IMG/VR virus record: IMGVR_UViG_2563366854_000003 | Coordinates: 1 to 28,681 of that record | DNA length: 28,681 nucleotides | Strand: one strand, 5' to 3' | From: a virus | Lineage: Duplodnaviria > Heunggongvirae > Uroviricota > Caudoviricetes | In this document: piece after piece, positions 19,850-20,363 of the stretch | Layout of the letters: each line of letters begins with the position of its first letter | Numbering within the stretch: position 1 is the first letter of the stretch | Notes under the pieces: generated by a model | Database searches by the model: none | Told to the model about the DNA's origin: nothing | The model's input: only the letters and a program-made list of their open reading frames with translations | Position numbers and translations under genes: made by a program

Positions 19850-19915
19850 TATGGCAGTAAGCTATGGGAGGCTGCCTTGATTGATTTTAGCAAACTGATT
19901 AGGGAGTTGCGACTC

Positions 19916-20011
19916 ATGATTAGTCAATTACCAAACTGGAAATTTTTGCTGGTCTGGAGCATCCCTTTTTTATGGGTAGTATCCCAGTTAATTGTGGCAA
20001 TTAAGGGGTAG
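19916..20011 (+). CDS. Small hydrophobic peptide (31 aa), putative membrane peptide A
   Basis: 'MISQLPNWKFLLVWSIPFLWVVSQLIVAIKG'; AGGGAG motif about 10 nt upstream; first of four consecutive small TM-peptide ORFs. Confidence 0.3.
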   Translation: MISQLPNWKFLLVWSIPFLWVVSQLIVAIKG

Positions 20012-20013
20012 CT

Positions 20014-20145
20014 ATGTCAGACAAACTCATAACGCCGGCAAAGGTCCTGTGTGTGATTGTCGGTATTTCATTTTCACTAATGCTGGTTGCTCTTTTTCTG
20101 TCCCTCGCCTGGGTGATGTTGTCTTCGTCGGGGCTGCTGGGGTGA
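20014..20145 (+). CDS. Small hydrophobic peptide (43 aa), putative membrane peptide B
   Basis: 'MSDKLITPAKVLCVIVGISFSLMLVALFLSLAWVMLSSSGLLG'; AAGGGG RBS 6 nt upstream of the ATG; single predicted TM helix. Confidence 0.35.
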   Translation: MSDKLITPAKVLCVIVGISFSLMLVALFLSLAWVMLSSSGLLG

Positions 20146-20264
20146 CAGTGACTGATGACATCAGCAGAGCGCTGGCTTTTGCTATTAAGTGGGTGGCTGT
20201 TGGTATTGCTGTGTCTCCGATGCTGTATGGGCTGGCAAAACTGGTCATTGCGCTGAAATCGTGA
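20142..20264 (+). CDS. Small hydrophobic peptide (about 40 aa, GTG start), putative membrane peptide C
   Basis: GTG at 20142 overlaps the stop of peptide B (GTGA); '...DDISRALAFAIKWVAVGIAVSPMLYGLAKLVIALKS'; resembles peptide D in sequence. Confidence 0.3.
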   Translation: MTVTDDISRALAFAIKWVAVGIAVSPMLYGLAKLVIALKS

Positions 20265-20275
20265 ACTTTAAAAAG

Positions 20276-20362
20276 ATGAGTGCTGAACTTATTCGGGCAA
20301 TGGCATTTGCCATTCGTATTGTGGCCATTGCTGTTCTGGTCTGGGCAATCCGTTGGTGGTGA
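20276..20362 (+). CDS. Small hydrophobic peptide (28 aa), putative membrane peptide D
   Basis: '[28 protein letters not shown]'; stop 1 nt before the Rz start; shares the 'AxAFAI(K/R)xVA(V/I)' core with peptide C. Confidence 0.3.
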
Positions 20363-20363
20363 T

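What the first reader, a model, noticed from the sequence alone, without database searches (positions are those of the whole stretch)
19850..20363. Four tandem small hydrophobic peptide ORFs between the SAR endolysin and Rz/Rz1
The lysis cassette (pinholin S, SAR endolysin R, Rz/Rz1) is interrupted after R by a strong terminator and then four consecutive, tightly packed or overlapping ORFs of 28-43 aa (19916-20011, 20014-20145, 20142-20264, 20276-20362). Each encodes a single predicted transmembrane helix; two have plausible RBSs and two are paralogous (shared AxAFAI(K/R)xVA(V/I) core); the last ends 1 nt before Rz. All fall below the ORF-track size cut-off. They could be lysis-timing modulators (antiholin-like, SAR-release regulators), type I-toxin-like peptides or superinfection-exclusion peptides.
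Basis: seen in the sequence. Interest (0 to 1): 0.65.

Follow-up and report, generated by a model that had tools for sequence, protein, structure and literature searches.

The report
Small membrane-peptide genes before phage Rz
Between the cell-wall enzyme gene and the outer-membrane-fusion genes of this E. coli prophage lie four real, conserved mini-genes for 28-45-residue membrane peptides; relatives sit in about a third of complete E. coli genomes and in most Shiga-toxin phage records, and no study of their function was found in the papers searched.

Summary
The window carries a phage-21-type lysis cassette: pinholin, DUF1327, SAR-type lysozyme R, Rz/Rz1. After R comes a strong hairpin terminator, then four packed hydrophobic ORFs, the last ending 1 nt before Rz. 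None of 1000 shuffles gives as many hydrophobic ORFs.

All four match PHROG families of unknown function. O3 and O4 belong to one superfamily. Substitutions are biased to synonymous sites only in the proposed frames. This is strong for O3, clear for O2, and rests on few changes for O1 and O4.

The ORFs behave as shuffling cassettes: nine R-to-Rz layouts were seen. They also follow two unrelated endolysin types, and in Salmonella they lie after tail-fibre genes. An unrelated hairpin terminator, with no sigma-70 promoter match after it, directly precedes them in the layouts and contexts without an antirepressor gene. Ant-containing layouts mostly lack one.

RefSeq already lists three of the four as hypothetical proteins, and the fourth in some genomes. 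An O2 relative lies just before Rz in 276 phage records, including 933W. Function is untested.

Best guess (0.4): late genes expressed only under Q antitermination, acting at the inner membrane around lysis. Main rival (0.3): accessory cargo such as superinfection exclusion. The type I toxin reading is disfavoured.

The parts
18557..18769 (+). Phage-21-type (class II) pinholin S; two close starts (MYQM...)
   Evidence: PF04971 Phage_holin_2_1, E 9e-33; ORF
18774..19124 (+). YdfR/DUF1327 protein of unknown function, between S and R
   Evidence: PF07041, E 6e-43; phrog_406
19188..19721 (+). Endolysin R: phage lysozyme with an N-terminal weakly hydrophobic SAR-like segment (YGLSAAVLALIAAGA)
   Evidence: PF00959, E 1e-23; hydrophobicity
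19812..19853 (+). Intrinsic terminator: 15-pair hairpin plus T tract, with an A tract upstream so it could act on both strands. Conserved after R in nearly all array-bearing relatives, with loop variation and one G-U to A-U stem change.
19877..20011 (+). O1, phrog_6632. The conserved core is the last 24 residues, WKFLLVWSIPFLWVVSQLIVAIKG. Start is either TTG 19877 (45 aa, SD duplex -10.2) or ATG 19916 (31 aa, SD -8.4).
20014..20145 (+). O2, phrog_4906, 43 aa. Strong single transmembrane segment with basic residues on the N side. This is the family found just before Rz in Stx phages.
20142..20264 (+). O3, phrog_1115/3246/4493. An N-terminally shortened copy of the MKNG...AFAIKW...ALKS family. 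GTG start overlaps the O2 stop; alternative GTG at 20148.
20276..20362 (+). O4, 28 aa. A short paralogue of O3 that ends in RWW. Its 3' end carries the Rz ribosome-binding stretch; its stop lies 1 nt before the Rz ATG.
20364..20831 (+). Rz (i-spanin)
   Evidence: PF03245, E 7.5e-50
20584..20769 (+). Rz1 (o-spanin lipoprotein), embedded in Rz
   Evidence: PF06085, E 1.7e-21

Best explanation
The four ORFs are genuine protein-coding mini-genes from three families of small inner-membrane peptides, each with one helix and the N terminus on the cytoplasmic side. They travel between lambdoid prophages as interchangeable cassettes.

They have no detectable promoter of their own and sit directly behind an intrinsic terminator. 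Inferred consequence: they are silent in the lysogen and are made only when Q-modified RNA polymerase reads through the late operon. They would then be produced together with, and translationally joined to, Rz/Rz1.

The most likely role is a non-essential accessory one at the inner membrane during the lysis phase, tuning the timing or efficiency of envelope disruption. They probably act on the membrane in general rather than on one specific phage partner.

Shown: the ORFs, their conservation, the selection on them, the cassette shuffling, the terminator, the tight spacing to Rz, and the absence of a sigma-70 consensus match.

Inferred: late-only expression, membrane insertion and topology, and any effect on lysis.
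For: 1. Coding.
- Ratio of non-synonymous to synonymous change in the proposed frame versus the two other frames: O3 0.30 vs 1.27 and 3.59 (19 alleles); O2 0.40 vs 0.82 and 1.42 (29 alleles).
- O3 of E. coli against Salmonella copies: 0.17-0.23, Fisher p 3e-5 to 1e-7.
- O1 0.29 and O4 0.32, against 0.76 or more in the other frames.

2. Position.
- Among 111 distinct R-to-Rz intervals there are nine layouts built from the same cassettes.
- The last cassette stops 1, 2 or 7 nt before the Rz ATG in 104 of 110 intervals.

3. Link to lysis genes across unrelated cassettes.
- O3 and O2 relatives follow a GH108 endolysin that has two other holin types. An O4 relative lies in a cassette with an M15 peptidase.

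4. Gating.
- A stable hairpin with a U tract lies directly upstream of the arrays in five contexts. The hairpin sequences are unrelated (-12 to -24 kcal/mol, z -3.1 to -4.5).
- No sigma-70 match lies between hairpin and first ORF. In some cases only about 35 nt separate them.

5. Carried by phages that propagate. PhiR5 and PhiR12 phages grown on E. coli C or K-12 carry them, as do 276 phage records including 933W.

6. Helix. AlphaFold gives one 39-residue helix for the O3 family. O2's segment is as hydrophobic as the Rz membrane segment.
Against: - No experiment or expression data were found for any family.
- Salmonella O3 relatives lie after tail-fibre genes at the prophage edge, not in a lysis cassette.
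- K-12 Qin has R overlapping Rz with no array. The genes are therefore dispensable for lysis as such.
- The families show no link to one holin or endolysin type.
- Broken alleles occur: frameshifted O2 in 9 loci, and a nonsense or frameshifted O1.
- The promoter scan covers only the sigma-70 consensus.
- The selection estimates are pairwise counts on recombining, related alleles. For O1 and O4 they rest on 10-13 substitutions.
Confidence: 0.4

Rival explanations
1. Accessory cargo (moron-like) whose target is the host envelope or competing phages rather than lysis. Examples would be small inner-membrane superinfection-exclusion or receptor- or transport-modulating peptides that happen to ride at recombination hot spots in the late operon.
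For: - Combinatorial presence or absence and shuffling are typical of accessory genes.
- Salmonella copies lie after tail-fibre genes next to host DNA. One copy is bracketed by terminators.
- There is no link to one holin or endolysin type.
- In two cassettes the array is followed by a small lipoprotein rather than Rz.
- GC content is somewhat lower than in R and Rz (0.39-0.50 vs 0.54-0.55).
- Other accessory genes sit next to Rz: TonB-family or PerC in E. coli relatives, Bor in Sakai Sp5.
Against: - A role in the lysogen needs expression there. In the five contexts without an antirepressor gene that were read in full, a terminator lies directly upstream with no sigma-70 match and often too little room for a promoter.
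- No PADLOC hit.
- No PHROG functional label.
- Tight coupling to Rz.
Confidence: 0.3
2. The peptides matter little. The ORFs persist mainly to keep ribosomes on the transcript between the terminator and Rz. That would prevent Rho polarity and deliver ribosomes to the Rz start. Alternatively they are decaying remnants.
For: - O4's 3' end is invariant and holds the Rz ribosome-binding stretch.
- In Qin, Rz is coupled directly to R.
- In this window O3 and O4 are N-terminally shortened copies with weak or absent SD matches.
- Broken alleles exist.
Against: - Amino-acid-level constraint is strong for O3, including between copies that are not next to Rz at all. It is clear for O2.
- The families are kept in contexts without Rz.
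Confidence: 0.1
3. Type I toxin-like addiction or stress peptides held in check by an antisense RNA.
For: - The peptides are small and hydrophobic.
- The hairpin could terminate transcripts on both strands.
- A weak promoter-like match lies on the minus strand at 20020-19991, opposite O1.
Against: - That match is within chance expectation: 2 found against 3.0 expected.
- No Rfam family reaches threshold in 19600-20500. Only ohsC appears, at E 1.3 on the terminator. The window's real hok/sok locus is found easily.
- There is no own promoter and no long folded leader.
- Tandem coupled arrays joined to Rz are unlike known type I loci.
- Reshuffled cassette order would break any fixed antisense partner.
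Confidence: 0.05

Closest known systems
Accessory membrane proteins of phage lysis cassettes: holin/antiholin pairs such as phage 21 S68/S71, and the extra holin-like proteins of P1 (PMC9025707)
   Same: Small membrane proteins encoded inside a lysis cassette on the late transcript. A role in timing is plausible.
   Different: No sequence relation to any holin family (Pfam negative). One helix instead of two or three. They come as interchangeable arrays placed after the endolysin. They are found with three different holin types.
Mu gp25 releasin (DUF2730; PMC9239132)
   Same: A single-pass membrane protein in a cassette with a SAR endolysin and spanins, needed for SAR endolysin release. R here also has lysines in its short cytoplasmic N terminus (MNTKIK).
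   Different: Not DUF2730. The releasin has an N-terminal membrane segment plus a cytoplasmic domain, whereas these peptides are 28-60 aa with the helix at the C-terminal end. The same families also accompany a GH108 endolysin with no N-terminal hydrophobic segment.
Morons of lambdoid phages, for example the HK97 gp15 small inner-membrane exclusion protein (recalled from memory, not tested here)
   Same: Small membrane proteins inserted as optional cargo in the late operon. Mosaic distribution.
   Different: Classical morons carry their own promoter upstream and a terminator downstream. Here the terminator is upstream, no promoter was found, and in E. coli the array runs straight into Rz.
Type I toxins such as Hok (a real hok/sok locus lies at about 10.6 kb in this window)
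   Same: Size and hydrophobicity.
   Different: No antisense RNA, no own promoter or leader, tandem coupled layout.
phiKT gp28 disruptin (bioRxiv 10.1101/515445)
   Same: A small cationic peptide in a lysis role. The 60-aa O3 form has net charge +7.
   Different: Disruptin replaces spanins. Here Rz/Rz1 are present and intact. No sequence relation was tested or is known.

Membership tests
PHROG phrog_4906 (O2), phrog_1115/3246/4493 (O3, O4), phrog_6632 (O1); all of unknown function | Significant match to the family profile | tested here: met
   O2 4.5e-21. O3 6.4e-25, 2.4e-20 and 5e-17. O4 3.8e-6 and 9.2e-5. O1 6e-5 (31-aa form) and 1.3e-12 (70-aa form).
Protein-coding gene under selection | Excess of synonymous over non-synonymous change in the proposed frame only | tested here: met
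   Strong for O3, clear for O2, suggestive for O1 and O4 (10-13 substitutions each).
Holin / antiholin families | Sequence membership in a holin family | tested here: not met
   No Pfam or NCBIfam hit at E up to 1. The window's own holin scores 9e-33.
Holin / antiholin families | Controls lysis timing; binds or inhibits the holin | not testable with these tools
   Needs genetics and biochemistry.
Releasin (Mu gp25, DUF2730) | DUF2730 domain: N-terminal membrane segment plus cytoplasmic domain | tested here: not met
   No Pfam hit. The helix is C-terminal.
Spanins (Rz/Rz1 or unimolecular) | A periplasm-spanning domain, or a lipobox with an outer-membrane anchor | tested here: not met
   The peptides leave at most 14 residues after the helix and have no lipobox. 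Rz and Rz1 are separately present.
Type I toxin-antitoxin | Antisense or overlapping RNA antitoxin with its own promoter | tested here: not met
   Rfam finds nothing above threshold. The one minus-strand promoter-like site is within chance.
Type I toxin-antitoxin | Own promoter and structured 5' leader for the toxin mRNA | tested here: not met
   A terminator lies 30-70 nt upstream and there is no sigma-70 match.
Moron (own promoter, gene, terminator; expressed from the prophage) | Promoter directly upstream of the inserted gene | tested here: not met
   Sigma-70 consensus scans in five contexts found none. Other promoter types were not covered.
Moron (own promoter, gene, terminator; expressed from the prophage) | Terminator directly downstream | tested here: inconclusive
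   Absent in the window, where O4 runs into Rz. Present after the Salmonella L170 copy.
Moron (own promoter, gene, terminator; expressed from the prophage) | Expression in the lysogen | not testable with these tools
   No hit in the Sakai ribosome-profiling supplements. Multi-copy prophage genes may have been excluded there.
Known anti-phage defence proteins | Match to a PADLOC model | tested here: not met
   No hit at E up to 1.

The most novel reading that the evidence does not exclude
These cassettes form a previously unrecognised class of phage lysis accessory genes. They would be a shuffling set of tail-anchored micro-proteins, each guarded by an upstream terminator so that it is made only under Q antitermination. 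Their job would be to tune inner-membrane collapse, SAR-endolysin release or spanin action. If so, the O2 member upstream of Rz in most Stx phage records would influence the timing of lysis and hence Shiga toxin release.
Probability: 0.3. Interest if true: 0.65.

Novelty: new variant of a known kind. Interest (0 to 1): 0.45.

Why it matters
**How common they are**
- Sequences related to the array occur in 1862 of 5426 complete E. coli genomes.
- An O2 relative lies directly before Rz in 276 phage records. These include 933W, Min27, P27, the O104:H4-type phage P13374, and Shigella Stx phages.
- In the 933W record it has no CDS of its own. In Sakai Sp5 it is ECs_5707, a hypothetical protein.

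**What would follow from each reading**
- If these peptides affect lysis, they would add a layer to the pinholin/SAR-endolysin/spanin model. They could also bear on Shiga toxin release, which depends on phage lysis.
- If they do not, they are still a well-defined set of conserved micro-membrane proteins that can be tested by genetics, together with an unusual rule of organisation: terminator first, no promoter.

Tried and rejected
- **Pfam, NCBIfam, PADLOC and PDB sequence searches:** no informative hit.
- **Profile search of 1.84 billion representatives with the O3/O4 alignment:** only 21 clusters, all close relatives or frameshift variants. No distant characterised relative was reached.
- **Scan of species-representative genomes:** one weak hit.
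- **Rfam on the region:** nothing.
- **Literature:** seven full-text searches (spanin, SAR endolysin and lysis-cassette terms, protein accessions, locus tag ECs5707, ribosome profiling of O157, prophage sRNAs) found no paper on these peptides. Peptide strings and Sakai coordinates are absent from the supplements of the Sakai small-gene study.
- **Region between R and the terminator as a known prophage sRNA:** considered. The Pas and AgvB sRNAs map between the esterase and the holin, not here.
- **The 90-aa frame 19992-20264 and the 33-aa frame 20155-20256:** rejected. The part overlapping O2 shows no constraint (ratio 1.42), and variants ending in the 33-aa frame are frameshift alleles.
- **The 73-aa minus-strand ORF 20027-20248:** rejected. 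It spans the O2/O3 junction, which does not exist in the other layouts.
- **PGAP's 70-aa form of O1 (GTG 19799):** rejected. It would be translated through the terminator hairpin, and only the last 24 residues are conserved between lineages.

Full report
**1. What is in the sequence**

The window carries a phage-21-type lysis cassette:
- pinholin S at 18557-18769 (PF04971);
- a DUF1327/YdfR gene at 18774-19124;
- lysozyme R at 19188-19721 (PF00959), with a weakly hydrophobic N-terminal segment;
- Rz at 20364-20831 (PF03245), with Rz1 embedded at 20584-20769 (PF06085).

After R there are about 90 nt of non-coding sequence. A 15-pair hairpin with a T tract follows at 19812-19853 (-21.4 kcal/mol, z -4.1).

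- O1, 19916-20011: MISQLPNWKFLLVWSIPFLWVVSQLIVAIKG.
- O2, 20014-20145: MSDKLITPAKVLCVIVGISFSLMLVALFLSLAWVMLSSSGLLG.
- O3, 20142-20264: (V)TVTDDISRALAFAIKWVAVGIAVSPMLYGLAKLVIALKS. Its GTG overlaps the O2 stop.
- O4, 20276-20362: [28 protein letters not shown]. Its stop lies 1 nt before the Rz ATG.

The region holds four hydrophobic ORFs of at least 28 aa. The mean in 1000 dinucleotide shuffles is 0.47, and none reaches four.

Shine-Dalgarno matches are good for O1 and O2. For O1 the match before TTG 19877 is even better. They are weak for O3 and absent for O4.

**2. Are they genes?**

All four match PHROG families of unknown function. None matches Pfam, NCBIfam, PADLOC or PDB. PGAP already lists O2, O3 and O4, and sometimes a 70-aa form of O1, as hypothetical proteins.

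I collected more than 330 related loci from IMG/VR, RefSeq E. coli genomes and other assemblies, and counted substitutions by the Nei-Gojobori method in all three frames. The figures below are ratios of non-synonymous to synonymous change.

| ORF | Proposed frame | Other two frames | Data |
|---|---|---|---|
| O3 | 0.30 | 1.27, 3.59 | 19 alleles |
| O3, 48-aa form | 0.16 | 1.15, 5.69 | 12 alleles |
| O2 | 0.40 | 0.82, 1.42 | 29 alleles |
| O1 | 0.29 | 0.86, 1.22 | 2 lineages, 13 substitutions |
| O4 | 0.32 | 0.76, 2.85 | 2 lineages, 10 substitutions |

- O3 of E. coli against Salmonella copies gives pS 0.54-0.66, pN 0.12 and a ratio of 0.17-0.23, with Fisher p from 3e-5 to 1e-7.
- O2 of the window against a 56%-identical copy gives 0.56, p 0.03.
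- These are pairwise counts on related, recombining alleles, so they are not independent tests. The contrast between frames is the control.

**3. Family relations**

O3 and O4 belong to one superfamily.
- Full-length members read MKNGLE(L/V)xAPVTD(D/E)IS.A.AFAI(K/R), followed by a hydrophobic tail. The tail ends either ...ALKS (O3 type) or ...(I/V)RWW (O4 type).
- Intermediates exist, for example MKNGLEIDAPVSVELMRAVIFAIKVMAVGAVFVPAMYGIARLILAVRWW.
- The window's O3 and O4 both lack the MKNG part.
- AlphaFold predicts one continuous helix over residues 21-59 of a 60-aa member, with pLDDT above 90 from residue 31.

By hydrophobicity, O2 is as strong as the Rz membrane segment. O3 is as weak as R's SAR segment.

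The families are narrow.
- O3/O4: 218 clusters. O2: 209 clusters. The source names seen are Escherichia, Shigella, Salmonella or Stx phages, apart from one cluster also labelled Pseudomonas aeruginosa. All are called hypothetical, apart from one O2 entry labelled Rz.
- Only 21 representative clusters match among 1.84 billion proteins.
- Only one weak hit occurs among species-representative genomes.

**4. Anatomy across relatives**

Among 111 distinct R-to-Rz intervals there are nine layouts:

| Layout | Count |
|---|---|
| R-O3-O2-Rz | 38 |
| R-Ant-O2-Rz | 31, plus 6 where the antirepressor match is split |
| R-O1-O2-O3-O4-Rz (this window) | 27 |
| R-O3-O4-Rz | 3 |
| R-O1-O2-Rz | 2 |
| R-O3-O2-O3-O4-Rz | 2 |
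| R-Ant-O3-Rz | 1 |
| R-O3-O5-O4-Rz | 1 |

- The last cassette stops 1, 2 or 7 nt before the Rz ATG in 104 of 110 intervals.
- K-12 Qin has R overlapping Rz with nothing between them.
- The same families also occur elsewhere:
  - after a GH108 endolysin with two other holin types, in the order 65-aa peptide, O3, O2, small lipoprotein, then terminase, with no Rz;
  - in a cassette with an M15 peptidase, where an O4 relative is followed by the same lipoprotein;
  - in Salmonella after tail-fibre or esterase genes at the prophage edge, sometimes as tandem paralogues.

In the layouts and contexts without an antirepressor gene, a stable hairpin with a U tract lies directly upstream of the first cassette.
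- The hairpin sequences are unrelated to one another, at -12 to -24 kcal/mol and z -3.1 to -4.5. Most Ant-containing intervals lack a strong hairpin after R, and the L008 hairpin has only a weak U tract.
- No sigma-70 consensus match lies between hairpin and start codon.
- In several cases only about 35 nt are available.

**5. How it most likely works**

- *Shown:* conserved coding, one helix, cassette shuffling, an upstream terminator, no promoter match, and tight junction to Rz.
- *Inferred, from the established behaviour of lambda Q-modified RNA polymerase:* the array is silent in the lysogen and is transcribed only by terminator-resistant late transcription, together with the lysis genes. 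A terminator that recurs independently in front of these cassettes suggests that leaky expression is harmful. That fits membrane-active peptides made at the end of infection.
- *Conclusion:* I favour a non-essential accessory role at the inner membrane during lysis (confidence 0.4).
- *Against:* the Salmonella locations, dispensability (Qin), no link to one holin or endolysin type, occasional broken alleles, and no expression data.

Rivals:
- Accessory cargo such as superinfection exclusion or envelope modification (0.3). It fits the mosaic distribution and the Salmonella sites, but needs lysogen expression for which no promoter was found.
- ORFs kept mainly for ribosome delivery to Rz (0.1). 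This is contradicted by amino-acid constraint in copies far from any Rz.
- Type I toxin (0.05). There is no antisense RNA, promoter or leader.

**6. Comparison with what is known**

The peptides work most like accessory lysis-cassette membrane proteins such as antiholins and the Mu releasin. They are members of none of those families. The Pfam families for holins and DUF2730 do not match, the helix is at the C-terminal end, and spanin features are absent.

They differ from classical morons in having the terminator upstream and no promoter.

I found no paper on them. Seven full-text searches and two supplement searches were empty.

**7. Verdict**

The finding is real and its description is accurate. 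The genes are already in databases as hypothetical proteins, so the sequence families are not new. What has not been described, as far as I could find, is four things:
- their organisation as terminator-gated, shuffling arrays;
- the O3/O4 superfamily;
- the near-constant presence of an O2 relative before Rz in Stx phages: 276 records, including 933W, where it has no CDS of its own, and Sakai Sp5 as ECs_5707;
- their function.

Interest is moderate (0.45). The function is unproven, but the system is well defined and easy to test, and it sits in medically relevant phages.

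Noticed in passing
window 18404-18520: Between the stop of the upstream esterase-like gene (about 18403) and the holin start (18557) lies non-coding sequence ending in a 12-pair hairpin with a T tract (18486-18514). This is the position where the PasA/PasC (and AgvB-type) prophage sRNAs are reported: esterase, sRNA, holin, lysozyme. Rfam gave no hit there. The sequence was not compared with a Pas sRNA.
   Followed up: partly
window 4537-4588 (-), 10617-10792 (+), 15312-15468 (+), 15735-15925 (+): Rfam gathering-score hits: DicF, sok (so a hok/sok locus is present), two tRNAs and STnc100. 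Together with the lysis cassette these mark a Qin-like or Stx-phage-like lambdoid prophage.
   Followed up: no
L172 3279-3461; L338 1591-1782: In two E. coli lysis cassettes without Rz/Rz1 (GH108 and M15 endolysins), the small-peptide array is followed by a 51-63-aa lipoprotein with lipobox LVGC and two further cysteines (phrog_7528, unknown function). Its N-terminal extension starts MNR/MKR, like Rz. No i-spanin was seen in those loci, so how these phages breach the outer membrane is open.
   Followed up: partly
window 19724-19747; L172 about 3475-3497; L338 about 1759-1781: A short shared stretch (GCAGAATATTTTGCTGAAAAATGA, with one or two changes in the window) lies right after R in the window. 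In L172 and L338 it lies right after the lipoprotein gene, and the sequence that follows differs. It looks like a module-boundary linker used in recombination.
   Followed up: partly
window 18557-18568: The pinholin has two close start codons (MYQM...), but the three-residue extension carries no basic residue. From memory, the phage 21 antiholin form S71 begins MKSM, and its lysine matters. If so, this holin may lack that built-in antiholin. Not checked against a reference sequence.
   Followed up: no
window 19799-20011 and 20109-20264: Two database gene models look over-extended. The 70-aa O1 form starts at a GTG upstream of the terminator hairpin and would be translated through it. PGAP's 51-aa O3 model maps to a CTG at 20109 in this sequence.
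   Followed up: partly
IMG/VR loci of the R-O3-O2-Rz type: Nine loci carry an O2 allele whose C-terminal half is frameshifted. Eight of them read ...LMLVALRLDDVVFVGDAGVRGI, the same alternative frame that lies upstream of O3 in the window. The window's O2-O3 junction may derive from such a rearranged copy.
   Followed up: no
window 21155-21496: A TonB-family protein gene (113 aa with a lipoprotein-like N terminus) lies about 320 nt after Rz, with a promoter-like site at 21110-21137. Relatives carry PerC or Bor at the same place. The Rz-proximal region is therefore a cargo hot spot on both sides.
   Followed up: no
L008 about 1310-1460: Another layout (R-O3-O5-O4-Rz by similarity) begins with a further small membrane ORF (MQVKDNNKTFLSIGCSMTPKAANIAGIILALSAMIGAIGFAVAAIAY...). 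It is preceded by TTGACA, 13 nt, TATAAT directly before its ATG. The spacer is too short for a standard promoter, but this is the only promoter-like element seen next to any array.
   Followed up: no
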